This document shows positions 1 to 49,287 of a DNA stretch of 49,287 nt, in pieces. A program made the translations under genes and the position numbers. Under the pieces are notes generated by a model. The model worked only from the letters and a program-made list of their open reading frames with translations. It did not search any database and was not told the DNA's origin. The first letter of the stretch is position 1, and the number at the start of each line of letters is the position of its first letter. This stretch comes from a virus: UHGV virus genome UHGV-0210521; one strand, given 5' to 3'.

Positions 1-2460
1 AACGATCCAGACAATCTGGAAGGCAACCTGACTGCCTATGTGCAGGCGTTCTCACCGAACGCGCGTGACGTGATGCAGTCTTACAGTTTCTTCAACGTGA
101 TCGACCGGCTCGACCGATCGGGACTCTTGTTCCAGATTCTTGACGCGTTCACCGCCCCTGATGTTGATCTGTCTCCGAAAGCGGTCTCGAACGCCGACAT
201 GGGCACCATTTTCGAAGAGCTTATCCGCCGTTTCAATGAGCTCTCGAACGAAACCGCTGGCGAACACTTCACACCCCGTGAGGTCATTAACCTCATGGTC
301 AACATCTTGTTTGAACCGGACATGGACGTGATTTGCGAGCCAGGGTTCATGGCCTCGCTGTATGACCCAGGGGCAGGCACAGGTGGCATGTTATCCACCG
401 CGATTGAGCAAGCCCACGACCTGAACGACCGAGCACGCATTGAAGTCTACGGACAAGAGCTCAACCCGCAAACCTATGCGGTGGCGAAATCGGACACTCT
501 CATCAAGGGTGAGGATGCCGACCGAATCTACTTCGGCAACTCCTTAACGGACGATAAGACTGCTGGGCGGACATTCAACTATATGCTGTGCAATCCACCG
601 TTTGGAGTTGAATGGAAGAAGTACGCTGACCCGATCAAGGAAGAAGCTGAGAAGCGGGGCTGGAATGGCCGCTTCGGCGCAGGGCTGCCGAGGATCTCGG
701 ACGGCTCATTCTTGTTCTTGCAGCACATGATCTCCAAAATGAAGCCCTACAATCCGAACGACACTCAGAAATCTCCGGGCACGCGCATCGCGATCGTGTT
801 CAACGGCTCACCCCTGTTCACAGGTGCTGCTGGGTCAGGTGAATCCAACATCCGGCGTTGGATCCTTGAAAACGACTGGCTCGAGGCGATCATCGCCCTG
901 CCTGACCAGATGTTCTATAACACGGGGATACTTACCTACATTTGGGTGCTCTCCAACCGCAAGGAACCCCGACGCAAGAACAAGGTACAGCTCATTGACG
1001 CCACCGGCTTCTTTGATCGGATGCGCAAACCACTGGGCGAAAAACGCAAATACCTCACCGAGGACAACATCGCTGACATTGCACAGATCTATGGCAGTTT
1101 CACTGAAGGTGAGCATTCAAAGATTTTCGACACCACCGAGTTCGGCTTCCGTGAGGTCACAGTAGAACGCCCACTACGGTTGAACTTCCAAGTCAGTCCC
1201 GAGCGCATTGAGCGACTGTGGGAACAAACCACATTCAAGAACCTTGCCAGCTCGAAGAAACGCAGCGAGCCTGCACGCAGCGCCGAAATCCAAGCAGGCA
1301 AGAACGCCCAGATTGCTATCGTCAGTGCGCTCGATAGCCTTGACGGTGAGGTGATGTGGAAGAACCGCGACGAATTCACAAAGGTTCTCAAAGCTGCTTT
1401 CAAAGAGCTTGGTTTGACGGTGCGCGCACCGCTACTCAAAGCGATCCTTGCTGCTCTTGGTGAAACTGATCCGAGTGCGGATATCTGCTACGGCGCGAAA
1501 GGTAACGTAGAGCCAGACCCTGCTCTGCGCGACACCGAGCAAGTCCCACTCGCTGAGGATATCGACGCCTACGTTCAACGTGAAATCATCCCATACGCCG
1601 CCGACGCCTACGTCGACCCGGATAAGACGAAGATTGGCTACGAGATCCCCTTCACGCGCTACTTCTACCAATACGAAGAACTCGGCGACCCCACCGAGAC
1701 CCTCGCCGAAATCCAAACGCTCGGTGCCGACATCCAAGCAGCCATCGCCAAACTATTCAGTGAGCAGTGCAAGCGTGAACTGATCGCCCACACCGTCACC
1801 AAAGGCCTCAACCCCGACGCCCCAATGAAAGACAGCGGTATTGACTGGATTGGGAAGATTCCAAATCACTGGCATTCTCGTTCTCTGAAATCTCTGTTGA
1901 CCCGTAAATCGCGTAAGGGTGAGCCTTCCTGGAGAGTTCTTTCTGTTGAACGTGAGCGTGGGGTTGTAGATCGTGAACTTGAAGGGTCGCCAGATAATAA
2001 CAACCGTCTACCAGATGATTTGAGTGGTTATTTGGTAGTTCGGAACGGCCAATTTGTTATGAACAAAATGAAGGCTTGGCAAGGATCATATGGAGTGTCG
2101 CTGTATGACGGGATTGTCAGTCCTGCGTATTACACCTTCGATTTAGCGTCTTCCGTGGATTCTGAATTCTTCAACTGGGCTATACGGTCAAAAGCATATA
2201 TTCCCTTCTTTGGCAGGGATTCTTACGGAATTCGCACAGATCAATGGGACTTTAAGGTACAGGCGCTCCGAAATATTCCACTATTTGTTCCTCCGGTGGA
2301 AGAGCAAAGGCAAATCGTTGACTACCTTGTTCAACGGCTGAAAGGGATCGATGGTTTGATTACCGATTTGGATCGTCAGGTTGAGTTGTTGAGGCGGTAT
2401 CGCAAGCAGGTTATTAACGATGTGGTGACGGGCAAGATCCGTGTCAGTGAGGAGGCATGA
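1..2460 (+). CDS. hsdM: Type I R-M N6-adenine DNA methyltransferase HsdM (5' end outside window) fused in-frame to a half-size HsdS specificity module (one target-recognition domain plus one conserved region, from about nt 1825)
   Basis: Reading frame is open from nt 1 (no stop before the ATG at 40). MTase motifs YDPGAGTGGML and LCNPPFGVEWKK. C-terminal ~210 aa (IDWIGKIPNHW ... IPLFVPPVEEQRQIVDYL ... VVTGKIRV) resemble HsdS TRD plus conserved region; no stop separates M and S parts. Confidence 0.8.
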   Translation, partial: NDPDNLEGNLTAYVQAFSPNARDVMQSYSFFNVIDRLDRSGLLFQILDAFTAPDVDLSPKAVSNADMGTIFEELIRRFNELSNETAGEHFTPREVINLMVNILFEPDMDVICEPGFMASLYDPGAGTGGMLSTAIEQAHDLNDRARIEVYGQELNPQTYAVAKSDTLIKGEDADRIYFGNSLTDDKTAGRTFNYMLCNPPFGVEWKKYADPIKEEAEKRGWNGRFGAGLPRISDGSFLFLQHMISKMKPYNPNDTQKSPGTRIAIVFNGSPLFTGAAGSGESNIRRWILENDWLEAIIALPDQMFYNTGILTYIWVLSNRKEPRRKNKVQLIDATGFFDRMRKPLGEKRKYLTEDNIADIAQIYGSFTEGEHSKIFDTTEFGFREVTVERPLRLNFQVSPERIERLWEQTTFKNLASSKKRSEPARSAEIQAGKNAQIAIVSALDSLDGEVMWKNRDEFTKVLKAAFKELGLTVRAPLLKAILAALGETDPSADICYGAKGNVEPDPALRDTEQVPLAEDIDAYVQREIIPYAADAYVDPDKTKIGYEIPFTRYFYQYEELGDPTETLAEIQTLGADIQAAIAKLFSEQCKRELIAHTVTKGLNPDAPMKDSGIDWIGKIPNHWHSRSLKSLLTRKSRKGEPSWRVLSVERERGVVDRELEGSPDNNNRLPDDLSGYLVVRNGQFVMNKMKAWQGSYGVSLYDGIVSPAYYTFDLASSVDSEFFNWAIRSKAYIPFFGRDSYGIRTDQWDFKVQALRNIPLFVPPVEEQRQIVDYLVQRLKGIDGLITDLDRQVELLRRYRKQVINDVVTGKIRVSEEA

Positions 2461-5400
2461 TGGATACGTCGGAGCGCAGGTTTGAGTCCGAGATCGAATA
2501 CTGGCTGACTACCCAGGGAGCGGAGTTTGACCGGTTTGAGACGCGTGACTCGCAGGGTTTTGATCGCGAGCTGTGCATGTATCCAGCTGACCTGATCCAG
2601 TTTGTGAAAACTACGCAACCGGATCAGTGGGCCAAACTGGAGCGGGCCTATCACGGTCGAGCCGAGGAACGTTTCGCGAAACGTGTGGCTGATCAGTTGG
2701 ATCAGCGTGGCGTGATTGAGATGCTGCGGCGCGGTGTAGAGGATGTTGGTGCCCGCTTTAAGCTGGTCTATTTCGCTCCGGGTACGGATTTGAATGAAGC
2801 TCTGGCAGAGAAATACTGGCAAAATCAGATGAGCATCATGCGGCAGGTGCATTATTCGACGAAGAATGAGAACTCTGTTGACACGGTACTGCTGGTGAAC
2901 GGCATCCCGTTGGTAACACTCGAGTTGAAAAATCAGCTGACTGGGCAGACATATCGTGATGCGATCCGTCAGTACAAGATGGACCGTTCCCCGTCGGAAA
3001 AGCTCTTCGCCCTGGGTAAACGTGCGGTGGTGCACTTCGCGGTTGATACCGATGAGGCGTGGATGACTACGAAGCCCGCCGGGCTCGACACCGTGTTCTT
3101 GCCGTTTAATCGTGGCGTGAATAATGGTGCTGGGAACCCGCCTGTGGAGGGCAAGTTCAAGACGGCCTACTTGTGGGAGCAGGTGCTTGCGAAAGACTCG
3201 TTGCTCGACATTCTGCACCGGTTCGTGCAGTTCGTGCCGGGCAAAGATGGAAGTGGTCGGCGGGCGCGGCCGAAAGACAAGGTGATCTTCCCGCGTTTCC
3301 ATCAGTTGGATGCGGTACGAGCACTCGTTAAGGATGCGAAAGAGCAGGGTGCTGGGCACAACTATTTAGTGCAGCATTCAGCTGGTTCGGGTAAGTCGAA
3401 CACGATCGCATGGCTGGCTCACCACTTATCGAATTTGCATGATGACCAGCAGCGGGTGGTTTTCGATTCGATCATCGTGATCACCGACCGACGCGTGCTG
3501 GATAAGCAGCTCCAAGACACGGTGTTTTCGATGGATCACACAGCAGGCGTCGTCGTAAAGGTTGATAAGAACGCCCGCCAGCTCACCGATGCTCTCGGGC
3601 GTGGTTCGCGCATCATTATCTCGACCTTGCAGAAGTTCCCGTTCGTTGACGTGTCCAGCATCGCGACGGACGGGAAGCGCTTCGCGGTGATTGTGGATGA
3701 GGCGCACTCGTCTCAGACTGGGCAGGCTTCGGAGCGGCTGAAGCAGGTGTTGGCTGACACCGCAAAAGCGGGTGAAGAGTCTGAAGCTGAGCTATTGGAC
3801 CGTTACGCTCGTGCCGAGGCGCAGGTGGAGGCTGCAGAGCTTGAGATTGACGAGCAGATCGCGGCGGATATGACGACCCATGGGCGTCAGGCGAATCTGT
3901 CGTTCTTCGCGTTCACGGCCACACCTAAGCAGAAAACCTTGGAGATTTTTGGAACCCCGGTTGCTGGTGGCACTCCGCGCCCGTTCCATGTGTATTCGAT
4001 GAAGCAGGCGATCGAGGAGGGTTTCATCCTCGACGTACTAGAGAATTACACCACGTATAGGACTTACTACAAGATCGGCAAGAAAACGGCTGACGATCCC
4101 GAGTATGGGAAGAAGCAAGCGAACAAGGCACTCGGCAAATACTTGGCGTTGCACCCGCATAATCTGCGGCAGAAAGCCGAGATCATTATCGAGCATTTCC
4201 GCTCCAATGTGGTGCACAAGATCGGCGGTAAGGCCAAGGCAATGCTGGTGACCGGTTCCCGGTTGCACGCGGTGCGCTACTTTTTCGCCTTCCAAGACTA
4301 CATTCGGGCCAAGGGTTATACCGATCTCGGCGTTCTCGTGGCGTTCTCCGGCACCGTCGAAGACGATGGACAGGACTACACCGAGGAGCAACTCAACGGC
4401 TTCCCCGAAGCCGAGCTGCCCGATCGGTTCGACACCGGTGAGTACCAGATTCTGCTGGTGGCCGAGAAATACCAGACCGGGTTCGACCAGCCCCTGCTGC
4501 AGACCATGTATGTGGACAAGAAGCTCCACGGGGTCAAGGCCGTGCAGACCCTGTCGCGGATCAACCGAATGTGCCCGGGCAAGTCAGATACGTTCGTGTT
4601 GGACTTCGTCAACAGCGCTGACGACATTCAGGCGGCGTTCCAAGACTATTACGTGTCGACCTCGATCAGCGAGGAAACCGACCCGAACATCGTCTACGAT
4701 CTCTACCACCTGATCGCCTCCTACCAGCTGTGGCGAGATGAAGAGATCGACGGATTCGCGACCGTGTTCTTCAGAGAGCAAAAGCAGCAGACCAACCTCG
4801 ACTTTGGCAGGCTCAACGCCTACCTCGACCCTGCGGTCGACCGCTTTGACGCGCTTGACGATGAGGAAAAGCTCGAGGTGCGCTCGGCGTTCAACAAGTT
4901 CAACCGCAACTACGAGTTCTTGACCCACATCATCCGCTTCGACGACGAGCAGCTGCATAAGTTCGCCGCATACGCGAAGCTGCTGACCCGCAAGCTCCAC
5001 ATCGACGGCGACCCTGCCCCACACCTGGATGATGAGGTCACCTTGCAGTACTACCGGCTCCAGTCGGTCTATGAGGGTTCCATCGACCTACAAGACCGGG
5101 TGGGTGAGTTGAAGAACTCGCCCAAGCTGGGCATGCCCACCGCGGACGAACGTGAACGGCTCTCGAAGATCCTCGACTCCCTCAACGAACGATGGGGCAC
5201 CGAGTTCACCAACATGGACAAAGTCCTCGAACAAGTCGCCGATGACCTTGCACAAGATGATGAAATTCAACTACGTGCTCACAACACGCTGGACTTGTTC
5301 AAGATCATCTATGACGAGAAGATGCCCGACGTGATGCTCTCACGGATGACGCAGAACCAAGAATTCGCCATGAAGTACCTCTCCGACCCTGTGTTCAGAG

Positions 5401-5474
5401 GTGACGTGGATGCGATCTTACTGCCGCTTATCCATGAGCGCCTCAATCGTCGCGACGAGGATACTGCCGTTTAA
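2457..5474 (+). CDS. hsdR: Type I restriction enzyme HsdR (nuclease plus SF2 ATPase/translocase)
   Basis: 1005 aa; Walker A SAGSGKS, DEAH box AVIVDEAHSS, N-terminal nuclease-like VLLVNGIPLVTLELK; start overlaps upstream stop (ATGA); GGAGG upstream. Confidence 0.85.
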   Translation: MMDTSERRFESEIEYWLTTQGAEFDRFETRDSQGFDRELCMYPADLIQFVKTTQPDQWAKLERAYHGRAEERFAKRVADQLDQRGVIEMLRRGVEDVGARFKLVYFAPGTDLNEALAEKYWQNQMSIMRQVHYSTKNENSVDTVLLVNGIPLVTLELKNQLTGQTYRDAIRQYKMDRSPSEKLFALGKRAVVHFAVDTDEAWMTTKPAGLDTVFLPFNRGVNNGAGNPPVEGKFKTAYLWEQVLAKDSLLDILHRFVQFVPGKDGSGRRARPKDKVIFPRFHQLDAVRALVKDAKEQGAGHNYLVQHSAGSGKSNTIAWLAHHLSNLHDDQQRVVFDSIIVITDRRVLDKQLQDTVFSMDHTAGVVVKVDKNARQLTDALGRGSRIIISTLQKFPFVDVSSIATDGKRFAVIVDEAHSSQTGQASERLKQVLADTAKAGEESEAELLDRYARAEAQVEAAELEIDEQIAADMTTHGRQANLSFFAFTATPKQKTLEIFGTPVAGGTPRPFHVYSMKQAIEEGFILDVLENYTTYRTYYKIGKKTADDPEYGKKQANKALGKYLALHPHNLRQKAEIIIEHFRSNVVHKIGGKAKAMLVTGSRLHAVRYFFAFQDYIRAKGYTDLGVLVAFSGTVEDDGQDYTEEQLNGFPEAELPDRFDTGEYQILLVAEKYQTGFDQPLLQTMYVDKKLHGVKAVQTLSRINRMCPGKSDTFVLDFVNSADDIQAAFQDYYVSTSISEETDPNIVYDLYHLIASYQLWRDEEIDGFATVFFREQKQQTNLDFGRLNAYLDPAVDRFDALDDEEKLEVRSAFNKFNRNYEFLTHIIRFDDEQLHKFAAYAKLLTRKLHIDGDPAPHLDDEVTLQYYRLQSVYEGSIDLQDRVGELKNSPKLGMPTADERERLSKILDSLNERWGTEFTNMDKVLEQVADDLAQDDEIQLRAHNTLDLFKIIYDEKMPDVMLSRMTQNQEFAMKYLSDPVFRGDVDAILLPLIHERLNRRDEDTAV

Positions 5475-5518
5475 ACCCACGCGACCACGGGTCGTGCTTG
5501 CGCACCACTCCAAAGCAT

Positions 5519-5536
5519 GTTAGCATAGTTGCTAAC
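5519..5536. promoter_or_regulatory. Perfect palindrome GTTAGCA-TAGT-TGCTAAC, candidate operator for the downstream HTH regulator
   Basis: 7-bp inverted arms with 4-bp spacer, 22 bp upstream of the ATG at 5558 and just upstream of the AGGAGG RBS. Confidence 0.4.
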
Positions 5537-5557
5537 AACGTTAGGAGGTTGTTTCTC

Positions 5558-5932
5558 ATGGCTGAATCAGAAACCTTTGGCACTTTCCTTGAGCAACATA
5601 GGAAAGACCAAGATCTCACCATGCGCAGGTTCGCAGACATGATCGGAGTCACTGCACCCTATTTGAGCGATATTGAAAAAGGGCGCAGGGCCGCCCCTGA
5701 CGCGAAGCTGGAGAATATTGCTGACGTACTTCACCTCAACCGCGAAGAACGGGAAAAGATGTACGACCTTGCCGCCCTCACGAGGGAGAACCAAGTATCG
5801 ACTGACTTGTCGGGCTATATTATGGAAACCGACATGGCGCGAGTTGCCCTTCGCCGAGCCAAGGAGCGAAATCTTAGTCAGCAACAATGGGCAGACATCC
5901 TCGACATCATCGAAGGTGAGGAGGACAAGTAG
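5558..5932 (+). CDS. XRE-family helix-turn-helix transcriptional regulator
   Basis: HTH segment LTMRRFADMIGVTAPYLSDIEKGRRAP; AGGAGG RBS 8 nt upstream of ATG 5558 (track ORF starts at 5498 but the internal ATG has the RBS). Confidence 0.7.
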   Translation: MAESETFGTFLEQHRKDQDLTMRRFADMIGVTAPYLSDIEKGRRAAPDAKLENIADVLHLNREEREKMYDLAALTRENQVSTDLSGYIMETDMARVALRRAKERNLSQQQWADILDIIEGEEDK

Positions 5933-6603
5933 TGAGTCTTGAGCCGAAATACATCAGCAAAGAAAATCTCGACGAACGGGCAGAAAAGCTCCTGTCGAGA
6001 TATCGAGGTGGCACTCTACTCGCCGTAGCGGCACCGCTCGATATCGAACACTTCGCAGAATTCGAGCTCGACGCCAAACTTGACTACCAGCGACTATCGG
6101 CAGATGACTCTGTGCTCGGAATGTCGGTCTTTCAAGATCTGACACTGCCTGTCGCAAGCGCTAGTGGGGCTCGCGCTCATGTTGAAATCCCTGCAAGAAC
6201 CATCGTGATTGACGATCGGGCGCTGGATGACTCACCAGAAGGTCGATTTCGGTTCACCATCGCACATGAGTGCGCGCACCTGATTTTGCACTCACGAATC
6301 TTTTATCGCGACCCTTCGATGTCATGCCCGAACAAGAGTGGTTACCTTCCGTTTACGGCTGAAACCGAAAATGTAGGGAGTGAGAAGTTCAACCGAGGCG
6401 AGTTTCAGGCTAACTATCTTGGCGCGGCCCTGCTTATGCCAAGGATGACCTTTTCACGGGCATTTCATGAGTTTGTGCCACTGCCATGGGCAGAGATGAC
6501 TGACCGTAATAAGCGTCAAGTCGTCTCGCAACTCGCAGACCTGTTCAACGTATCTCCGACCGCCGCCGCTCTTCGCATCAAACATCTCGAACTGGCCTCG
6601 TAA
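5932..6603 (+). CDS. ImmA/IrrE-family zinc metallopeptidase (HExxH)
   Basis: HECAHLILH motif; GTG start overlaps the stop of the HTH gene by 1 nt (translational coupling). Confidence 0.7.
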   Translation: MSLEPKYISKENLDERAEKLLSRYRGGTLLAVAAPLDIEHFAEFELDAKLDYQRLSADDSVLGMSVFQDLTLPVASASGARAHVEIPARTIVIDDRALDDSPEGRFRFTIAHECAHLILHSRIFYRDPSMSCPNKSGYLPFTAETENVGSEKFNRGEFQANYLGAALLMPRMTFSRAFHEFVPLPWAEMTDRNKRQVVSQLADLFNVSPTAAALRIKHLELAS

Positions 6604-6681
6604 GGATGGGAAGGGCGTGAAGCCTATTTTTTTTAACAAAAGTGTTAGCCAATTAGCGAACAAGCAAATGAGTGGAGGTTG

Positions 6682-6837
6682 ATGGAAACAATCAAGAACG
6701 CAGCAGGCAAGACAATCTGCCGAGTCGATCTGCACAACAAACACATAGAAATTGTCAACAAGGGCTATCGATCGTGGATTTGGTTCGACGCCACGGGCAG
6801 ACTTCACGAACGTCACGAGCCACGACAGCCACCCTAA
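6682..6837 (+). CDS. Hypothetical small protein (51 aa)
   Basis: ATG with GGAGG RBS 5 nt upstream; below the 60-aa ORF-track cutoff; lower GC than surroundings; no recognisable domain. Confidence 0.25.
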   Translation: METIKNAAGKTICRVDLHNKHIEIVNKGYRSWIWFDATGRLHERHEPRQPP

Positions 6838-7016: not shown

Positions 7017-7745
7017 ATGTCCAAGCGCTCCGACGCTCAAGAAACCTTTCGCACAATCACAATCCGCTTCAAGCACGAAGCAGACAACAACAAGAACGAG
7101 TCCACCACCGACACTTTCGACATCGACCCTGGCGAGTTCGCTCTCATGATCGCTACCGACCGCCAGCAACGCGCCGCAGCTACTGGTGTTCCGCTCGACC
7201 AGGTTAAGCCGCGCACCGCACAGAAAATCCTGGACGAGTTGTGGAACGCAGAAGAAGCAGCCACACATAAGGCGGTTCGCGCCGATCGCGGCAAGGGCAA
7301 GAAGAAATGCACGTGCGGAGCCGGGTGCGGTCCTCGACGTGGATGCCGTCTGCCAAACAACAAGCCCTTTTCGTATGAGCAGATGCTCGACATCGACCTT
7401 GACCCTGCTTCGCCAGGTATCAGCGCTGAAGACCAGGCCATCGAACGTGAGAACAGCGTCCAGCGTGCCCGTGAGCTCAAGGTGATGCGTGACGTCATCG
7501 ACGGGTTGGATCCCCAGCATCGCGAGGTGATGACGCGCCTTCTCGCAACCGACAAGCTCAATCAGGCGCAGGTGGCGCGCGACATGGGGTTGACCCGCGC
7601 TCGGGTATCGCAGCTGGTGGCAGAGGTGAAACCGATGATCCGACAGGCGGTCGAGGATGCCCGATTTAACACTTTCGGCGGTGTCGGCAGTGGGGTGAAG
7701 GGAGAAGCCAACCGGGCTACTCCCACCAACATGGAAGAAAGGTAA
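7017..7745 (+). CDS. Putative phage regulator with C-terminal sigma-70 region-4-like HTH
   Basis: C-terminal LDPQHREVMTRLLATDKLNQAQVARDMGLTRARVSQLV; ATG 7017 preceded by AGGAGA; Lys/Cys-rich segment KGKKKCTCGAGCGPRRGC. Confidence 0.5.
   Translation: MSKRSDAQETFRTITIRFKHEADNNKNESTTDTFDIDPGEFALMIATDRQQRAAATGVPLDQVKPRTAQKILDELWNAEEAATHKAVRADRGKGKKKCTCGAGCGPRRGCRLPNNKPFSYEQMLDIDLDPASPGISAEDQAIERENSVQRARELKVMRDVIDGLDPQHREVMTRLLATDKLNQAQVARDMGLTRARVSQLVAEVKPMIRQAVEDARFNTFGGVGSGVKGEANRATPTNMEER
7663..7704. repeat. Conserved 42-bp element copy A (GATTTAACA-N17-GTCGGCAGTGGGGTGAAGGGAG)
   Basis: Near-identical copies at 13465-13502 and 43902-43943; lies 46 nt upstream of the gene starting at 7751. Confidence 0.6.
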
Positions 7746-7987: not shown

Positions 7988-8397
7988 TGATGCCGGAAAT
8001 TAACGCCTTCATTCGTGATGGAAACCAGGCGCTGCGATCGCTTGCTGATTTGCTTTTGCGAGCTCAGCAGATCGTTGAGGAGAGCTTCGAAGACCACGCA
8101 GGAATGCCTGGTGAACGCCCAGAGCTTGCCCTGCAGATCAAGGAACCCTTCGAAACCATCCCAGCCACGCACGCCCAGCCAGAACTACTCGCGGACGAAC
8201 CAGAGATTGAACCTGAACCGGTAGTGACGCTCGAAGAAGTACGTGCTTTTCTTTCCGAACTCTCAGCGCAAGGCCACACCGCAAAGGTTCGTGAGCTGAT
8301 CGTCGAGGCTGGTGCCGACAAGCTCTCAGCGGTGAATCCAGCAAAGTTCGGCTGGCTTCTGGAACGGGCGAAGGAGGTCGCTGATGGCACCGTCTGA
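7984..8397 (+). CDS. Hypothetical phage protein
   Basis: 137-aa ORF; start overlaps the upstream stop (ATGA); no recognisable domain. Confidence 0.45.
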   Translation: MMMPEINAFIRDGNQALRSLADLLLRAQQIVEESFEDHAGMPGERPELALQIKEPFETIPATHAQPELLADEPEIEPEPVVTLEEVRAFLSELSAQGHTAKVRELIVEAGADKLSAVNPAKFGWLLERAKEVADGTV

Positions 8398-9523
8398 TCA
8401 CGCACTCCTCTCAGCATCCGGTGCGCACAGGTGGCTCAACTGCACGCCCTCAGCACGCCTCGAATCCGATGAGCCAGAATCATCCTCGTCTGCTGCCGAG
8501 CAAGGTACCGCCGCCCACGCCCTCGCCGAGTGGAAGCTCCGGCGCGCCTTCCACCAGGCACCGACCTTCAAGCCGGTCTCGGCCTGGATTGATGACGAGA
8601 TGGAAACCTTGACTGACGACTACGTCGCCTACGTCCAAGAACACATCTCGTTGGCAGAGCAAACCTGTGGTGATCCGCAGGTGCTGATCGAGCAGCGCCT
8701 AGACTTCTCCCACATTGTGCCCGGAGGTTTTGGCACCGGGGATTGCGTGATCATCGCCGAACCCACCTTGCAGATCATTGATCTCAAGTACGGGCAAGGC
8801 GTCCTCGTCGAGGCCGCGAACAATCCGCAGTTGATGTTGTATGCGCTCGGAGCGCTTCACACCTTCGGGAGCCTGTACGACATCGAGACGGTGGCGGTCA
8901 CGATCTATCAGCCGCGCCGGGCGAACGTCGACACCTGGGAAATCTCCGTTGCCGAACTTCAGCACTGGGCTGAAACCGAGGTCAAGCCGAAAGCCGAGCT
9001 CGCCTCGGCTGGCGGGGGCGAGTTTTGTCCTGGCTCGTGGTGTCAGTTTTGCAAGATTGCACCCACGTGCCGGGCACGAGCGGAAGCCAATCTTGCGCTC
9101 GCCAGGTTGGAGTTCGCCCCACCAGCAGAACTAACGGACGCAGAGATCGCTGACGTGCTGGCCCGTATACCGCAGCTCAAAACATGGGCGGCGAATGTGG
9201 AAGCTTACGCCCTGTCGAAAGCCGTCAACCAGGGCGTGGTCTTTGAGGGGTTCAAAGTCGTCGCCGGACGGTCGGTACGCAAATACACCTCCGAAACCGA
9301 CGTGGCTGCGGCGGCTGAGGCGGCTGGCTACAAAGACATCTATGACCGCAAGCTCATCACCCTCACAGCCATGGAACGCCTCATGGGCAAATCCACTTTC
9401 AACGAGATCCTCGGCGACCTCGTGACCAAACCTGCAGGCAAACCCACCCTGGTTCCTGCATCCGACAAACGGCCAGCACTTGACCTGGTGAGTGCGGCCA
9501 CCGATTTTCAAACAAACAAGTAA
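8384..9523 (+). CDS. PD-(D/E)xK nuclease, DUF2800-like (Cas4/RecB-like fold with C-terminal Cys cluster)
   Basis: N-terminal LSASGAHRWLNC, GDCVII ... IIDLKYGQG, C-terminal CPGSWCQFCKIAPTC; usual first gene of this phage replication module. Confidence 0.65.
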   Translation: MAPSDHALLSASGAHRWLNCTPSARLESDEPESSSSAAEQGTAAHALAEWKLRRAFHQAPTFKPVSAWIDDEMETLTDDYVAYVQEHISLAEQTCGDPQVLIEQRLDFSHIVPGGFGTGDCVIIAEPTLQIIDLKYGQGVLVEAANNPQLMLYALGALHTFGSLYDIETVAVTIYQPRRANVDTWEISVAELQHWAETEVKPKAELASAGGGEFCPGSWCQFCKIAPTCRARAEANLALARLEFAPPAELTDAEIADVLARIPQLKTWAANVEAYALSKAVNQGVVFEGFKVVAGRSVRKYTSETDVAAAAEAAGYKDIYDRKLITLTAMERLMGKSTFNEILGDLVTKPAGKPTLVPASDKRPALDLVSAATDFQTNK

Positions 9524-22157: not shown

Positions 22158-23379
22158 GCTGAAGCCCGCTGACTACAATCCGCGTAAAGACCTCCAGCCC
22201 GGCGATCCCGAATACGAGAAGCTCAAGCGCTCGCTCACCGAGTTTGGCTACGTCGAACCCGTCATCTGGAACAAGACCACCGGCAACATCGTGGGTGGGC
22301 ATCAGCGCTTGAAGGTGCTCGAAGAACTCGGCCACAACACCGTGGATGTGATCGTCGTGGAGTTGGATGAGACGCGCGAGAAAGCCCTCAACATCGCGTT
22401 GAATAAGATCAGCGGCGAATGGGATAACGATAAACTTGCCCTCCTCATCGCTGACCTTGACGCTTCGGATTTCGACGCTGAACTGACTGGCTTTGACGAT
22501 GCTGAGATCGCGCAGCTTATCGGCTCCCTCGACGAGGGTGAGGTGGAGGATGATGATTTCGACCTCACCGCCGCACTCGAAGCAGCCGCATTTGTCCAGC
22601 GTGGGGATGTGTGGACGGTCGGTCGCCACCGCCTCGTGTGCGGGGATGCCACCAGTGCCGACGACATCGCCACACTGATGGATGGTAAGCGCGCGAATCT
22701 TGTGTTGACCGATCCGCCATATAACGTTGCCTTCGAATCAGGCTCGGGCTTGTCCATCAAGAACGACAAGATGGATGGCGAGAAGTTCTACGACTTCCTG
22801 CTATCGGCGTTTACGAACATGGCGGGCGTGTGTGAGAAAGGCGCATCCGCGTATGTGTTCCACGCTGACACTGAAGGGTTGAATTTCCGTCGCGCCTTCG
22901 CAGAGGCCGGATTCTATCTTTCGGGGTGTTGCATCTGGGTCAAAGACTCTCTGGTTCTTGGTCGCTCGCCCTACCAGTGGCAGCACGAGCCAGTGCTCTA
23001 CGGGTGGGTGAAGACAGGTAAGCATCGCTGGTATGCGGATCGCAAACAAACCACGATCTGGAATTTCGCTAAGCCCCGCCGCAACGCCGATCATCCGACC
23101 AGCAAGCCGCTGGATTTGTTGGCGTATCCGATCGGAAACTCCACCCAGGCGAACGCGATCGTGCTCGACACCTTCGCAGGCTCAGGCTCAACCTTGATGG
23201 CGTGCGAGGCAACCGACCGCATCTGCTATTGCATGGAGTTCGACGAGAAATACGCCTCCGTGATTTTGCGCCGCTATGCCGAACACACCGGGGACGCGGC
23301 AGGGATCACCTGTTTGCGTGAGGGCAAAGAATACGCGTATTTGGATTTGGTGCGCGATGTTGATCGGGGTGAATCGTGA
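22129..23379 (+). CDS. ParB-like nuclease domain fused to DNA methyltransferase (N6-adenine/N4-cytosine class, DPPY motif)
   Basis: N-terminal ParB-like PIAELKPADYNPR ... GGHQRL; MTase motif LVLTDPPYNVAF; start choice (22129, 22135 or 22144) uncertain. Confidence 0.8.
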   Translation: MLMKTMPIAELKPADYNPRKDLQPGDPEYEKLKRSLTEFGYVEPVIWNKTTGNIVGGHQRLKVLEELGHNTVDVIVVELDETREKALNIALNKISGEWDNDKLALLIADLDASDFDAELTGFDDAEIAQLIGSLDEGEVEDDDFDLTAALEAAAFVQRGDVWTVGRHRLVCGDATSADDIATLMDGKRANLVLTDPPYNVAFESGSGLSIKNDKMDGEKFYDFLLSAFTNMAGVCEKGASAYVFHADTEGLNFRRAFAEAGFYLSGCCIWVKDSLVLGRSPYQWQHEPVLYGWVKTGKHRWYADRKQTTIWNFAKPRRNADHPTSKPLDLLAYPIGNSTQANAIVLDTFAGSGSTLMACEATDRICYCMEFDEKYASVILRRYAEHTGDAAGITCLREGKEYAYLDLVRDVDRGES

Positions 23380-24887
23380 GTGCTTTGACGTTGGGGTCCT
23401 TGTTTGATGGTTCGGGCGGTTTCCCTTTAGCTGCCAAAATGGTTGGTATCAAACCGATGTGGGCATCTGAGGTAGACCCCTTCGCTATCCGGGTAACTAA
23501 GAAAAATCTGCCTGAAGTTCGCCATGTTGGCGATATTAATTTGTTAGATGGTGGCCGGTTACAGCCGGTGGATGTGATCACGTTTGGTTCACCTTGTCAG
23601 GATTTATCTATCGCAGGTAAGCGGAGCGGGATTGATGGGTCTCGCTCCTCACTGTTTTACCAAGCTGTGCGAATTATTGAAGAAATGAGGCAAGCAACTC
23701 ATGGTGCCTACCCAAGATATGCTGTGTGGGAAAACGTGCCGGGCGTATTCTCCTCAAACCACGGAGCCGACTTCGCCGCGGTCTTGCAAGCGTTTATCGA
23801 GGTATCCTGCCAGCAAACGCCACGCATTCCTGTTCCTGAAACCAGCTGGGCAACCAGCGGATACGTCTTGGCAGATGGGGCATCACTTGCATGGCGAGTG
23901 CTCGATGCTCAATTTTTCGGAGTGCCCCAACGTCGTCGTCGTATCTTCCTTGTCGCAGATTTTGCAGGACAATCCGCACCCGAGATTCTATTTGAGTCCC
24001 AAAGCAGCACAAGGAATCCTGACGCGAGCAAAGAAGAAAAACAAAACCCTGCCCGAACAATTAGCCCAAGCACTACAGGCAACCAGTGCGGGGCGTTAAC
24101 TCTTCGTATGCGTGCCGGTAAGCCAGGCGGTGGTAAAGGGCCGTTGATTCAGCATGACCTTTCAGGCACATTAGGAACTGGTGCTGACCAAGTCTTATTT
24201 GAACCTAGCATGCAGGTGATGCTTGATTACCATCCCAATGATTCACGCATCGAAATTGGCGACCAGGTAACAAGTCAAACCTTAACTTCACGAATGGGAA
24301 CAGGAGGTGGAAATGTTCCACTCCTACTCGACCAACCTGTATACGGTATAAATTCCGTCCACGACAATCGTAAATATGGTGGTGAATGCGGTTACGAAAC
24401 CACTGTGGCAAAAACTCTTGATTTAGCTGGCGGTAATCCCGCATGCAATCAAGGCGGAATGGTCATTCTCGAACCGATCTATGCTTCTTCGAAATCTGAT
24501 CATTTCACGAGGGCAACCACAAATGTTTCAGGTGCACTTTTGGCAAGTGATTCACACCAGCCACCTATTGTCGCTAATACGATGCTTCGACCACGCAAAC
24601 TCACACCCCTCGAATGTTCTCGTCTACAAGGCTTCCCGGACTATTGGTGTGACAACCTCACAAACCTCGACCCAGACGAAGACGAAATCAGGTACTGGGA
24701 GGGCGTGTGGAAGAACTGGAACCTAGGACGGGGCGTGAAACCGAAAACTCGCAGCCAAATCACTACTTGGCTGAAAACCGCGCCAACTGATTCAGCACAG
24801 TACAAACTGTGGGGAAATGGGGTGGCATTACCAGTAGTGAAATACGTCCTCAACAGGCTACAAAAAGCAGCCAATACGACTGGATAA
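23376..24887 (+). CDS. DNA (cytosine-5)-methyltransferase
   Basis: Motif I LFDGSGG, motif IV GSPCQDLSIAG, motif VI WENVPG, motif VIII QRRRR, motif X WGNGVALP; long variable region between VIII and IX. Confidence 0.85.
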   Translation: MSALTLGSLFDGSGGFPLAAKMVGIKPMWASEVDPFAIRVTKKNLPEVRHVGDINLLDGGRLQPVDVITFGSPCQDLSIAGKRSGIDGSRSSLFYQAVRIIEEMRQATHGAYPRYAVWENVPGVFSSNHGADFAAVLQAFIEVSCQQTPRIPVPETSWATSGYVLADGASLAWRVLDAQFFGVPQRRRRIFLVADFAGQSAPEILFESQSSTRNPDASKEEKQNPARTISPSTTGNQCGALTLRMRAGKPGGGKGPLIQHDLSGTLGTGADQVLFEPSMQVMLDYHPNDSRIEIGDQVTSQTLTSRMGTGGGNVPLLLDQPVYGINSVHDNRKYGGECGYETTVAKTLDLAGGNPACNQGGMVILEPIYASSKSDHFTRATTNVSGALLASDSHQPPIVANTMLRPRKLTPLECSRLQGFPDYWCDNLTNLDPDEDEIRYWEGVWKNWNLGRGVKPKTRSQITTWLKTAPTDSAQYKLWGNGVALPVVKYVLNRLQKAANTTG

Positions 24888-24927
24888 GCGGGCGCACCTA
24901 TGGCTGTATGTACATGACCAAACAAGA
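24878..24927. repeat. 50-bp conserved element copy 1 (GACTGGAT-N12-TATGGCTGTATGTACATGACCAAACAAGA)
   Basis: Copies at 25853-25902 and 26350-26399; contains palindromic core ATGTACAT; overlaps the 3' end of the C5-MTase gene. Confidence 0.7.
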
Positions 24928-47499: not shown

Positions 47500-49287
47500 G
47501 TGAACGATAGTGTAATGGATCAGGTTGTTGAAGGCGAGTATGAGTCGGCGAAGGAAAAATCTGTCGCTGGCCAGAACGCGATCCGTCAGCTATCGCAGCC
47601 GGTGAAAGGCAAACTGTTTATCGCGCAGGTTTTGGCTTTTCTCTCTGGTGTGTTGGCTATTGCCCCGTATGTGGCTTTGGTGGAGCTTGGCAGAGAACTT
47701 ATGCAAGACCGGGTGGACCCGGCGCGGGTGAACTGGATCGTGATGCTTCTCGTCAGCGCATACATGGCCCGGTTGACCTTATATTTTGTTGCATTGGGCG
47801 TGACGCATTTTATTGACCTGTCGTTGCGTAATCAAATGCGCCGCCAGATTGCCGCCCGAATGTCGACTGCTCCGCTGTCGTGGTTTACCCGCGAGGGTGA
47901 GGGGAAGATCCGCAAGACCATTCAGGATGATACGTCCACGGTGCACACAGTGATCGCGCACGGGCCGATTGAGAAACTGAACGCGATCGTATCCCCGCTC
48001 GCCTTGTTAGCCTATGCGTTCGTGGTGGATTGGCGGCTCGCTCTGCTGTCGATTGCGACGATTCCGATCTATGTGGGCATGTATGGCATGTCGATGCGTG
48101 GGATGAATGAGAAGACCGCCCAAATGGACACCAAGCTCGCTCAGGTTTCGGCAACGATGGCCGAGTTCGTTGCCGGTATCTCAGTGGTGAAAGCGTTCGG
48201 CAAGGTTGGCCAAGCACATAAAGCCTATTTAGATGCAGCTAACGAGTTTTCTAAGTTCTACCGGGCTTGGTGTATGCCGCTGGTGTCGATGTCGGTCGCC
48301 TCATTTTCGTGGGTGTCGATCCCGGTGTTGTTGATCGTGAACCTTGGCGGTGGCGCGTTGATGATGAACGCCGGTTGGGTGAGCATCTACGAGGTGATAA
48401 CGACCACGTTGATCGCCTTGGTGTTGCCGGGAGCGTTGATGGCAGTCGCAACGATCGCCTGGTCGTACCAGCTCGCAGGGTCTGCGGCAGTACGGCTGGT
48501 GAACGTCATGGAGCTACCGGCATTGCCTCAGCCAGATATGCCGCAGACGCCAAAGGGTCATGATATCGAGATTCGGGGTGTGTCGTATGCCTATGACGAG
48601 ACCCAAGCGTTAGACGAAGTGAGCCTGAGCATTCCGGCAGGCACGGTGACCGCGCTGGTTGGGCCTTCGGGCGCGGGAAAGTCGACGTTGGCGAGTTTGA
48701 TTGCCCGCTTCGATGATCCAGATGCTGGCACGATCACTATTGGCGGGGTTGATCTAAAGAGCATTTCCCAGGATGTGTTGTATTCGACGGTCGCATTCGT
48801 CCTGCAAGATGCACAGCTTATTCGCGACACCATTCGAAACAACATCGCTCTTGGCGCGCCAGACGCAACCTTGGATCAGGTGCGGCAGGCGGCGCAGGCG
48901 GCGCAGATCGACGAGTTCATCATGAGCCTGCCAGATGGTTACGACACTGTGTTGGGTGAGGATACCCACGTTTCGGGCGGGCAGGCAGCCCGTATCGCGA
49001 TCGCCCGGGCGCTCATGGTTGATGCCCCAGTGTTGGTGTTGGACGAGGCGACGGCGATGGCGGACCCGGAATCGGAATCGAAAATCCAACAAGCTCTCTC
49101 GACTCTTGCCAAAGGCAGAACCGTGATTGTGATCGCCCACCGACTGGCCTCGATCAGAGGAGCAGACCAAATCGTCGTCATGGAACGCGGGCGCATTGCT
49201 GTGGTCGGTAAACACGACGAGCTGTTGGGTAATGCGCACTATCAGGCACTTCTTGCCCAAGGTGCATGCGAGGAGATGACACGATGA
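47500..49287 (+). CDS. ABC transporter, fused permease/ATP-binding protein (type I exporter)
   Basis: N-terminal transmembrane domain, Walker A GPSGAGKST, signature VSGGQAARIAIARAL, Walker B VLVLDEATA; GTG start; stop at the window end. Confidence 0.85.
   Translation: MNDSVMDQVVEGEYESAKEKSVAGQNAIRQLSQPVKGKLFIAQVLAFLSGVLAIAPYVALVELGRELMQDRVDPARVNWIVMLLVSAYMARLTLYFVALGVTHFIDLSLRNQMRRQIAARMSTAPLSWFTREGEGKIRKTIQDDTSTVHTVIAHGPIEKLNAIVSPLALLAYAFVVDWRLALLSIATIPIYVGMYGMSMRGMNEKTAQMDTKLAQVSATMAEFVAGISVVKAFGKVGQAHKAYLDAANEFSKFYRAWCMPLVSMSVASFSWVSIPVLLIVNLGGGALMMNAGWVSIYEVITTTLIALVLPGALMAVATIAWSYQLAGSAAVRLVNVMELPALPQPDMPQTPKGHDIEIRGVSYAYDETQALDEVSLSIPAGTVTALVGPSGAGKSTLASLIARFDDPDAGTITIGGVDLKSISQDVLYSTVAFVLQDAQLIRDTIRNNIALGAPDATLDQVRQAAQAAQIDEFIMSLPDGYDTVLGEDTHVSGGQAARIAIARALMVDAPVLVLDEATAMADPESESKIQQALSTLAKGRTVIVIAHRLASIRGADQIVVMERGRIAVVGKHDELLGNAHYQALLAQGACEEMTR

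What the first reader, a model, noticed from the sequence alone, without database searches (positions are those of the whole stretch)
1825..2460. In-frame HsdM-HsdS fusion with a compositionally foreign, half-size specificity module
The hsdM reading frame runs without a stop into about 210 codons that look like one HsdS target-recognition domain plus one conserved region (IPLFVPPVEEQRQIVDYL ... VVTGKIRV). This segment is visibly more AT-rich than the flanking hsdM and hsdR sequence, which suggests recent acquisition or swapping of the specificity domain. Canonical Type I systems encode a separate two-TRD HsdS; a fused single-TRD module implies a dimeric, palindromic-target enzyme or a recombined (possibly inactive) system.
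Basis: partly seen in the sequence, partly recalled or inferred. Interest (0 to 1): 0.5.

Follow-up and report, generated by a model that had tools for sequence, protein, structure and literature searches.

The report
Deletion-made HsdM–half-HsdS fusion gene
In a phage-borne Type I restriction-modification cassette, a roughly 510-base in-frame deletion has welded the methylase gene to the second half of the specificity gene; this layout has already been built in the laboratory and found once in nature, so it is a tidy evolutionary snapshot rather than a new kind of system.

Summary
One reading frame runs from window base 1 (cut by the window edge) to the stop at 2458-2460, and hsdR starts at 2457. 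The full protein is 910 aa. Its last ~230 aa are the C-terminal half of an HsdS: one target-recognition domain (TRD) plus the distal conserved helix (PADLOC Specificity_I E=1e-60; the AlphaFold model matches solved HsdS structures).

Relatives carry a separate hsdM and a two-TRD hsdS. The window differs by an in-frame deletion of 507-510 bp, from the penultimate hsdM codons to the end of the central conserved region, at a GAGCRG microhomology.

The fusion is not an artefact. The same junction occurs in at least three independent assemblies at 99.97-99.99% identity.

The low-GC segment (0.46, the lowest in the window) is a ~700-bp TRD module. It is 97-100% identical to modules in cassettes whose flanks are only 67-92% identical, so it was exchanged recently.

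The product most likely works as a homodimer equivalent to M2S1, acting with HsdR on a palindromic bipartite site. An engineered equivalent is fully active, and a natural M-half-S fusion from Vibrio vulnificus has a solved structure (7EEW). Activity here is untested, and the fused alleles are near-clonal.

Verdict: new member of a known kind, of modest interest.

The parts
1..1767 (+). hsdM-derived part of the fused ORF. It covers residues 92-680 of the 910-aa protein; the first 91 codons lie left of the window. The catalytic motifs DPGAGTGG and NPPF are intact.
   Evidence: Pfam N6_Mtase E=4.3e-54. PADLOC MTase_I E=7.7e-268 over aa 2-677 of P0001. It aligns end to end with the 682-aa free-standing HsdM of phiCATYP2070I, L001 604-2652.
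1762..1770 (+). Deletion junction, GAGCAG|TGC. The last retained hsdM codons (..SEQ) are joined to a Cys codon that stands where free-standing HsdS relatives have TAC (Tyr) in ..ELLERY|KRELIAH..
   Evidence: Direct comparison of window 1740-1800 with L001 2630-2652 and 3140-3160, and with L164 1410-1430 and 1920-1940. BLAST pieces overlap by 6 nt at window 1762-1767.
1768..1827 (+). Residual tail of the HsdS central conserved region plus the linker (CKRELIAHTVTKGLNPDAPM). It now connects the HsdM C-terminal helix to the TRD.
   Evidence: Matches ..YKRELIAHTVTKGLD..APM of P0150, P0151 and the L171 HsdS. Modelled as a short helix, residues 55-68 of the model.
1828..2295 (+). Single target-recognition domain ('TRD X'), low in GC (0.45).
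   Evidence: 99.1% DNA identity to TRD2 of the free-standing HsdS in L164 and to both TRD copies in L171. Modelled as a beta-rich domain, residues 76-230, with HsdS fold matches.
2296..2460 (+). Complete distal (C-terminal) conserved-region helix of HsdS plus the stop codon. It is the presumed dimerisation helix.
   Evidence: A 44-residue helix, residues 233-276 of the model. Same length and near-identical sequence to the C-terminus of P0150, P0151 and the L171 HsdS.
1822..2510 (+). Recently exchanged specificity module: TRD X, the distal conserved region and the first ~55 nt of hsdR.
   Evidence: Sliding identity is 97-100% to L171 and L164 inside this block and 67-92% outside it.
2457..5474 (+). 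hsdR, 1005 aa and intact. It is translationally coupled through an ATGA overlap, with a GGAGG sequence lying in the last codons of the fusion ORF. The nuclease motif D..ELK, the Walker A motif GSGKS and the DEAH box are present.
   Evidence: Pfam HSDR_N, SWI2_SNF2, ResIII and T1R_D3-like. TIGR00348 E=7.7e-59. PADLOC REase_I E=6e-42. Sequence read.

Best explanation
The window carries a Type I R-M cassette borne on a ~48-kb phage or phage-plasmid-like element. The gene order is Phd-like gene, hsdM, hsdS, hsdR, followed by an XRE/ImmA pair.

In this lineage an illegitimate deletion of 507-510 bp, at a GAGCRG microhomology, removed the last two hsdM codons and the stop, the hsdS start, TRD1 and most of the central conserved helix. 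The remainder is in frame. The product is a 910-aa HsdM joined through a 20-residue linker to TRD2 and the complete distal conserved helix. This history is shown by the comparisons.

Inferred mechanism: two fusion polypeptides pair through their conserved helices as an antiparallel coiled coil. That gives (M-S1/2)2, the exact stoichiometric equivalent of M2S1. The dimer methylates, and with two HsdR restricts, a palindromic bipartite target whose half-site is the one specified by TRD X.

The TRD module itself is a low-GC cassette that has recently been exchanged between diverged cassettes by recombination in the conserved regions.
For: History.
- phiCATYP2070I (L001), L164, L165 and L171 all carry a separate hsdM (682 aa) and a two-TRD hsdS (397-427 aa). 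The window sequence rejoins them on both sides of a 507-510-bp gap.
- The same 90%-identity cluster holds both 682-aa unfused and 910-aa fused forms.

The fusion is real.
- The junction is identical in L002, L003 and L170.
- P0122 is recorded on 17 contigs.

All parts needed for function are intact.
- The MTase motifs are present and the distal helix is full length.
- hsdR is intact and translationally coupled.
- There is no other hsdS or hsdM in the window.

Precedents.
- The engineered S. aureus M1/2Sfus plus HsdR restricts phage (eop 0.10), modifies it (1.02), runs as a dimer and methylates ACCN5GGT at 99.66% of sites (PMC6158711).
- The C-terminal-half homodimer EcoDXXI deltaN recognises GAAYN5RTTC (PMC3874165).
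- The natural V. vulnificus HsdM-S1/2 fusion recapitulates M2S1 (PMC12429846; the 7EEW_A fold match is).

Supporting observations in relatives.
- A sibling element (L171) encodes a symmetric X-X HsdS with two identical copies of this TRD, so a palindromic specificity built from X already exists in the family.
- A second, independent fusion lineage (P0077, P0142 and P0148; 893 aa; different junction and TRD) kept its ORF through 4.7% (M part) and 2.8% (S part) amino-acid divergence.
Against: - No activity data exist for this protein.
- The five 910-aa variants differ by only 1-3 residues, all in the M part, and the DNA copies differ by 1-2 bases in 8 kb. The allele is therefore young, and no test for selection is possible.
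- Fusions are rare: 2 of the 120 best 90%-identity clusters. None of the other 183 family loci surveyed has a half-S fusion. The form may therefore be transient.
- The junction creates a Cys where Tyr is conserved, and it leaves a 13-residue stub of the central helix whose effect is unknown.
- Only a monomer fragment was modelled, so dimer geometry was not tested.
Confidence: 0.62

Rival explanations
1. The fusion is a recent loss-of-function lesion. The deletion destroyed the specificity subunit, the fusion does not assemble or bind DNA, and the cassette is inert (HsdR is harmless without an M2S core) and on its way to decay.
For: - The alleles are near-clonal and have no accumulated divergence.
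- Half-S fusions are rare among relatives.
- The junction carries a non-conservative Tyr-to-Cys change.
- An inert Type I system carries no cost, so it could hitch-hike with a successful phage or host lineage.
Against: - Nothing else in the cassette is damaged: hsdR is a full 1005 aa and all motifs are present.
- The deletion left exactly one TRD plus one full helix, the unit shown experimentally to work when fused to HsdM and seen in a natural enzyme.
- An independent second fusion lineage has persisted through about 4% protein divergence with its S part no more diverged than its M part.
Confidence: 0.33
2. The fusion is an assembly or sequencing artefact, for example collapse of the repeated TRD or a missed base that hides the hsdM stop codon.
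For: Relatives with two identical TRD copies are hard to assemble. L165 and L084 carry runs of N exactly there.
Against: - The same junction appears in three other independent assemblies from different samples and pipelines, ENA ERZ21776744, ENA ERZ28602441 and IMG/VR 3300007272.
- P0122 is recorded on 17 contigs.
- A repeat collapse would keep the hsdM stop and the hsdS start, and both are missing here.
- The two junction flanks share only about 6 nt, too little for a k-mer mis-join.
Confidence: 0.02
3. It is not a Type I derivative at all but a single-chain enzyme of another class (Type IIG, IIB or ISP, or a BREX/MADS methylase) that merely resembles HsdM plus a TRD.
For: Weak partial hits to MADS MAD2 models: NCBIfam E=3.4e-9 and PADLOC mad2 E=1.6e-23.
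Against: - PADLOC MTase_I gives a full-length match, E=7.7e-268.
- The M part is 79-83% identical at DNA level to annotated Type I hsdM genes whose hsdS and hsdR lie alongside.
- The 910-aa protein has no nuclease or helicase domain.
- A canonical hsdR follows it.
Confidence: 0.02

Closest known systems
Natural HsdM-S1/2 fusion methyltransferase of the Vibrio vulnificus YJ016 Type I operon (PDB 7EEW; Seo et al. 2022, Int J Biol Macromol 208:381, as described in PMC12429846)
   Same: One polypeptide holds HsdM plus a single TRD and a helix, and hsdR is separate. Two fusion chains recapitulate M2S1. 7EEW_A matches both the MTase core by sequence and the S-half model by fold.
   Different: The relationship is only distant: E=6e-4 over about 120 residues of the MTase core, and no detectable sequence similarity in the S half. 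The chain is much shorter (638 aa against 910 aa). The window's fusion is a demonstrably recent, independent deletion event whose unfused parents are still extant. I could not read the primary paper.
Engineered 'M1/2Sfus' of S. aureus CC398-1 (Bower et al. 2018, PMC6158711) and the 'Type IMS' concept (Roberts et al. 2012, PMC3510504)
   Same: hsdM is fused in frame to one TRD plus one conserved helix, and HsdR is supplied separately. The engineered protein is active in restriction and modification, is dimeric and has a palindromic target. Roberts et al. explicitly extend the name 'Type IMS' to single-TRD fusions with a separate HsdR.
   Different: The engineered construct keeps the N-terminal half (TRD1 plus the central helix) joined directly to the HsdM end. 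The window keeps the C-terminal half (TRD2 plus the distal helix), joined through a stub of the central helix. The window's fusion arose naturally, and its activity is untested.
Truncated half-HsdS homodimers (EcoDXXI deltaN and deltaC, EcoR124I NT) and 'Type 1 1/2' methylases such as M.AhdI
   Same: One TRD plus one helix dimerises to give a symmetric bipartite specificity. EcoDXXI deltaN shows that the C-terminal half is competent.
   Different: In those systems the half-S is a separate polypeptide (M2S2). Here it is covalently attached to HsdM.
Canonical Type I cassette of the same family, e.g. Corynebacterium atypicum phiCATYP2070I (NZ_CP008945.1)
   Same: Same element type, gene order and genes, at about 81% DNA identity: Phd-like gene, hsdM, hsdS, hsdR, XRE, ImmA.
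   Different: There hsdM (682 aa) and a two-TRD hsdS (397 aa) are separate, and its TRDs are unrelated to TRD X.
Type IIG, IIB and ISP single-chain enzymes (MmeI, BpuSI, BcgI, LlaGI)
   Same: A gamma-class MTase is covalently linked to a TRD. These are proposed evolutionary descendants of fused Type I enzymes (PMC6158711, PMC3510504).
   Different: They also carry a nuclease domain, and Type ISP enzymes a motor, in the same chain. The window's protein has neither and relies on a separate HsdR.

Membership tests
Type I restriction-modification system (HsdR/HsdM/HsdS) | Gamma-class N6-adenine methyltransferase subunit HsdM with a SAM motif and an NPPF/Y motif | tested here: met
   Pfam N6_Mtase E=4.3e-54. 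HsdM_N plus N6_Mtase on the full protein. PADLOC MTase_I E=7.7e-268 over the full length. The DPGAGTGG and NPPF motifs can be read. The TIGR00497 score of 66 bits is below its equivalog cut-off of 242.75.
Type I restriction-modification system (HsdR/HsdM/HsdS) | HsdR with an N-terminal PD-(D/E)xK nuclease and an SF2 ATP-dependent motor, encoded alongside | tested here: met
   Window 2457-5474 gives Pfam HSDR_N, SWI2_SNF2, ResIII and T1R_D3-like. TIGR00348 E=7.7e-59, at 199.8 bits below the subfamily cut-off of 284.55. PADLOC REase_I E=6e-42.
Type I restriction-modification system (HsdR/HsdM/HsdS) | Separate HsdS polypeptide with two TRDs and two conserved helices | tested here: not met
   Only one TRD and one complete helix are present, fused to HsdM. 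There is no other hsdS-like sequence in the 49-kb window.
Type I restriction-modification system (HsdR/HsdM/HsdS) | ATP-dependent translocation, cleavage far from a bipartite site, and R2M2S1 stoichiometry | not testable with these tools
   Biochemical properties.
HsdM-half-HsdS fusion with separate HsdR ('Type IMS', single-TRD form; V. vulnificus 7EEW; engineered M1/2Sfus) | One ORF encoding a complete HsdM followed by exactly one TRD and one conserved helix | tested here: met
   The 910-aa ORF has MTase_I at aa 2-677 and Specificity_I at aa 659-907, matching profile positions 190-438 of 468. The AlphaFold2 model shows the TRD plus a 44-residue helix, and its fold matches are HsdS subunits and 7EEW_A.
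HsdM-half-HsdS fusion with separate HsdR ('Type IMS', single-TRD form; V. vulnificus 7EEW; engineered M1/2Sfus) | Separate, intact hsdR in the same operon | tested here: met
   hsdR overlaps the fusion's stop codon (ATGA at 2457-2460) in the window and in L002, L003 and L170.
HsdM-half-HsdS fusion with separate HsdR ('Type IMS', single-TRD form; V. vulnificus 7EEW; engineered M1/2Sfus) | Homodimerisation to an M2S1 equivalent and methylation of a palindromic bipartite site | not testable with these tools
   This needs a methylome, size-exclusion chromatography or a multimer model. Only a monomer fragment could be modelled.
HsdM-half-HsdS fusion with separate HsdR ('Type IMS', single-TRD form; V. 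vulnificus 7EEW; engineered M1/2Sfus) | Common descent with the V. vulnificus fusion | tested here: not met
   Only E=6e-4 over about 120 aa of the MTase core, and no sequence match in the S half. The window's fusion derives from an unfused parent within its own family, so the architecture is shared but the origin is independent.
Type IIG / IIB / ISP single-chain R-M enzymes | Nuclease domain (and, for Type ISP, a motor domain) in the same polypeptide as the methyltransferase and TRD | tested here: not met
   No nuclease or helicase family hits the 910-aa protein in Pfam or PADLOC.

The most novel reading that the evidence does not exclude
This phage-borne Type I cassette family may be a natural record of the Type I 'deconstruction' pathway proposed by Dryden and colleagues. 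M-half-S fusions have arisen in it at least twice, independently, at different junctions: once keeping TRD2 plus the distal helix, and once keeping the central helix plus TRD2. Both persist as functional restriction systems with palindromic targets. They sit alongside their still-extant two-TRD parents and a symmetric X-X HsdS of the same specificity. That would give matched natural triplets (Y-X, X-X and M-X) for testing how fusion affects specificity, spacer length, stoichiometry control or resistance to anti-restriction proteins.
Probability: 0.4. Interest if true: 0.5.

Novelty: new member of a known kind. Interest (0 to 1): 0.3.

Why it matters
If it is active, this is a second, independently arisen natural example of the HsdM-half-HsdS ('Type IMS') architecture. 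It is unusual in that the deletion that made it can be reconstructed base by base, from near-identical unfused relatives.

It supports three ideas:
- Type I enzymes are structurally malleable.
- A single small deletion can convert an asymmetric-target enzyme into a symmetric-target one.
- Such events happen on mobile elements, where TRD modules are traded.

It also has a practical side. Annotation pipelines call this protein only 'N-6 DNA methylase' or 'hypothetical protein', and Pfam misses the S half. As a result the system looks as if it lacks a specificity subunit.

It does not reveal a new mechanism.

Tried and rejected
- Pfam Methylase_S on the C-terminal piece scored only E=0.02, below threshold. 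PADLOC, PDB and fold searches were needed to settle the homology.
- Phage-database megablast of window 1-6700 found nothing.
- Genome and metagenome scans with the M part returned 160 loci, but none at 90% identity or above.
The exact parent of the deletion therefore could not be read. The junction was reconstructed from relatives whose hsdM is 78-82% identical at DNA level.
- A dN/dS test was abandoned. The window, L002, L003 and L170 differ by 1-2 bases in 8 kb, and L166-L169 are identical. Only protein-level divergence of the second lineage could be counted.
- A candidate free-standing half-S next to HsdR (P0174, in L193 and L194) turned out to be a gene-calling artefact across scaffold gaps.
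- The roughly 240-aa half-size HsdS-like proteins (e.g. P0267) start inside the central helix and may be silent cassettes or fragments. I did not use them as evidence.
- An internal promoter or start site that could give a free half-S is unsupported. There are no promoter-like sites in 1400-2700 and no Shine-Dalgarno sequence before the ATG at 1825.
- The Seo et al. 2022 paper is not held. I relied on its description in PMC12429846 and on the 7EEW matches.
- I considered and rejected the readings as MADS, BREX or Type IIG.
Full report
**1. What is in the sequence**

Frame 1 of the + strand is open from window base 1 to the TGA at 2458-2460. The ORF runs off the left edge of the window. The complete protein, recovered from public assemblies, is 910 aa (P0001/P0122), and the window's 819 codons equal the C-terminus of P0122 exactly.

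Residues 2-677 are a full-length Type I HsdM. Pfam N6_Mtase gives E=4.3e-54, and PADLOC MTase_I gives E=7.7e-268 over profile positions 2-660 of 661.

The last ~230 residues are the second half of an HsdS. PADLOC Specificity_I gives E=1.3e-60 over profile positions 211-438 of 468. NCBIfam HsdS gives E=2.6e-4. PDB 1YF2 gives E=6e-10, with the segment matching both repeats of that S subunit. Pfam Methylase_S alone would have missed it (E=0.02, below the gathering score).

An AlphaFold2 model of window 1600-2457 has pLDDT 85 and pTM 0.81. It shows, in order:
- the HsdM C-terminal helix;
- a short helix, the stub of the central conserved region;
- a beta-rich TRD;
- one 44-residue helix.

Its best structural matches are solved HsdS subunits: 1YF2, PacII S, EcoKI S, 5YBB, 3OKG and EcoR124I S, plus the BsaXI S subunit.

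hsdR (1005 aa, 2457-5474) overlaps the stop codon (ATGA). It carries the HSDR_N, SWI2_SNF2, ResIII and T1R_D3-like domains. There is no other hsdS- or hsdM-like sequence anywhere in the 49-kb window.

**2. Composition**

GC of 1825-2460 is 0.462. The window mean for 636-nt stretches is 0.569 (sd 0.028), so z=-3.9, and this is the lowest such stretch in the window. GC3 is 0.40 in the TRD, against 0.67 in hsdM and 0.72 in hsdR.

**3. How the fusion arose**

The closest annotated relative is the circular 48-kb plasmid-prophage phiCATYP2070I of Corynebacterium atypicum, at 81% DNA identity. It has the same gene order but a separate hsdM (682 aa, ending ..IAKLFSEQAV*) and a two-TRD hsdS (397 aa). 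The same holds for L164, L165 and L171.

The window reads ..IAKLFSEQ-C-KRELIAHTVTKGL... Here hsdM, minus its last two codons and stop, is joined to the last residues of the central conserved helix (..ELLERY|KRELIAHTVTKGL..).

At DNA level the three sequences are:
- hsdM: ..AGTGAGCAG^GTGAACTAG
- hsdS: ..CTGGAGCGG^TACAAGCGT
- window: ..AGTGAGCAG TGC AAGCGT

The missing stretch is 507 nt in L164 coordinates (1422-1928) and 510 nt in L001 coordinates (2644-3153). Both lengths are multiples of three.

The flanks share GAGCRG. One relative has GAGCAG at that place in the central helix (L193), so the microhomology may have been perfect in the true parent. The junction codon TGC (Cys) differs by one base from the conserved TAC (Tyr).

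The deletion removed the hsdM stop, the hsdS start, TRD1 and most of the central helix. It left TRD2 and the whole distal helix.

**4. Is it real?**

The identical junction is present in two ENA metagenome contigs from different samples (L002, 102 kb; L003, 423 kb) and in an IMG/VR viral contig (L170, 47,979 nt). These are 99.97-99.99% identical to the window over 7.7-8 kb. P0122 is recorded on 17 contigs from JGI, Logan and ENA.

Collapse of a repeated TRD would have kept the hsdM stop and the hsdS start. The two junction flanks share only ~6 nt. An assembly artefact is therefore not credible.

The same 90%-identity cluster also contains unfused 682-aa HsdM proteins (P0121, on 18 contigs). 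Both forms therefore circulate in close relatives.

**5. The TRD as a traded module**

Window 1822-2510 covers the TRD, the distal helix and the first ~55 nt of hsdR. It is 97-100% identical to L171 and L164. The hsdM 3' end is only 67-91% identical, and hsdR falls to 68-73% by base 2600-2660.

The same TRD, at 93-98% protein identity, occurs as TRD2 of free-standing 398-aa HsdS proteins with two different TRD1 partners (P0150, P0151).

In L171 it occurs twice, in a 427-aa symmetric HsdS whose two copies are 100% identical to each other at DNA level.

Low GC, however, is shared by other TRDs of the family: 0.48 in L001 and 0.52 in L164 TRD1, against 0.59 for hsdM and hsdR in L001.

**6. Most likely mechanism**

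In a Type I methylase (M2S1) the two conserved helices of HsdS form an antiparallel pair, each TRD binds one HsdM, and the HsdM C-terminus lies near the start of a TRD (PMC3510504).

A chain consisting of HsdM, a linker, one TRD and one helix should therefore homodimerise to an exact M2S1 equivalent with two identical TRDs. That enzyme would recognise a palindromic bipartite site and recruit two HsdR.

This is inference, but it is strongly precedented:
- Bower et al. fused S. aureus CC398-1 hsdM to half of hsdS. With HsdR they obtained restriction (eop 0.10) and modification (1.02), dimeric behaviour, and methylation of ACCN5GGT at 99.66% of sites (PMC6158711).
- The C-terminal half of EcoDXXI HsdS works as a homodimer (PMC3874165).
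- A natural HsdM-S1/2 fusion from the V. vulnificus YJ016 Type I operon has a crystal structure (7EEW) in which two chains recapitulate M2S1 (PMC12429846). 7EEW_A also appears in my sequence and fold searches.
- The symmetric X-X HsdS of L171 shows that a palindromic specificity built from this very TRD already exists in the family.

**7. Against function**

The fused alleles are near-clonal. The protein variants differ by 1-3 residues, all in the M part, and the DNA copies differ by 1-2 bases in 8 kb. Persistence under selection therefore cannot be shown.

Fusions are also rare. Only 2 of the best 120 clusters are fused. No further half-S fusion was found among 183 other family loci surveyed.

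I put about 0.6 on 'active dimeric enzyme' and about 0.33 on 'recent inert lesion'.

**8. A second, independent fusion**

P0077, P0142 and P0148 (893 aa) come from a related phage-like element found in 16 or more contigs. That element carries a Phd-like gene, the M-S fusion, hsdR, XRE/ImmA, DUF2800, an Enc34 ssDNA-binding protein and PolA.

This fusion joins HsdM to the whole central helix plus TRD2 and then stops 13 residues into the distal helix. The junction and the TRD both differ from the window's, so this is a separate event.

P0077 and P0142 differ at 4.7% of M residues and 2.8% of S residues while keeping the same ORF. That is mild evidence that such fusions are maintained.

**9. Comparison with what is known**

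The cassette is a Type I system by its M and R components. It fails the 'separate two-TRD HsdS' criterion.

It fits the 'Type IMS' definition of Roberts et al., who explicitly include single-TRD fusions with a separate HsdR. It shares its architecture with the V. vulnificus enzyme.

It is not a close relative of that enzyme: E=6e-4 over the MTase core only. The shared architecture is therefore convergent.

It is not Type IIG, IIB or ISP, because the chain has no nuclease or motor domain.

**10. Verdict**

The feature is a new, independently arisen member of a known but rarely documented architecture.

Its main value is that the event that created it can be reconstructed from extant relatives. 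It also offers natural Y-X, X-X and M-X variants of one specificity module for experiment.

Interest is modest, at 0.3.

Noticed in passing
L171 7777-9060 (IMG/VR UViG_2806310650_000001); also L165 5558-6996 and L084 7777-8619: Sibling elements encode a symmetric 427-aa HsdS with the window's TRD twice (X-CR1-X-CR2). The two copies are 100% identical to each other at DNA level, so this HsdS should specify a palindromic target. In L165 and L084 (Actinomyces urogenitalis DSM 15434) this spot is a run of N, probably because the repeat defeats short-read assembly.
   Followed up: partly
L166 6001-8682 (also L167-L169); proteins P0077, P0142, P0148: A second, independent HsdM-half-HsdS fusion (893 aa) lies in a related phage-like element seen in 16 or more contigs, including wastewater. 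It keeps the whole central helix plus TRD2 and ends 13 residues into the distal helix, a circularly permuted half compared with the window's. How the 3' truncation arose was not worked out.
   Followed up: partly
L132 4029-7580 (uncultured deltaproteobacterial MAG CAWGVN010000004.1): Here the hsdM frame runs on for 445 codons into a full two-TRD HsdS, followed by hsdR at 7580. This is either a natural full-length M-S fusion or a frameshift error in a single MAG.
   Followed up: no
L001 390-614; L002 5805-6011; L166 5796-6011 (just left of the window): A small Phd/YefM-type antitoxin gene overlaps the hsdM start by about 11 nt in every element examined, and no adjacent toxin gene is called. It may act as a regulator of the R-M cassette rather than as an antitoxin.
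   Followed up: no
window 5498-6603 and onwards (8384-9523 DUF2800/PDDEXK-like; large + strand ORFs to about 41.8 kb); window 47500-49287: The cassette sits at one end of a phage or phage-plasmid-like element. An XRE repressor and an ImmA/IrrE protease lie directly after hsdR. The element is about 81% identical to the 48-kb circular phiCATYP2070I and 99.99% identical to a 47,979-nt IMG/VR contig. The window ends in an ABC-transporter gene, so here the element appears to be integrated in a chromosome.
   Followed up: partly
window about 23,900-24,900: This is the second-lowest GC stretch of the window (0.478-0.484 in 636-nt windows, against a mean of 0.569), inside the ORF at 23376-24887.
   Followed up: no
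proteins P0234, P0248, P0249, P0256, P0266, P0267 (237-249 aa; P0267 stands for 206 sequences): Many half-size HsdS-like proteins carry a related TRD and start in the middle of the central helix (..ERERELL..LKQ.EIA..V.KGLNPN.PMKDSG..). They may be free-standing half-S genes or silent cassettes of phase-variable loci. Their contexts were not examined.
   Followed up: no
L193 4320-4440; L194 3-530: The 220-aa 'half-S' P0174 next to HsdR is a gene-calling artefact caused by N-runs in the scaffolds. Metagenome scaffolds of this cassette family often break inside hsdS.
   Followed up: yes
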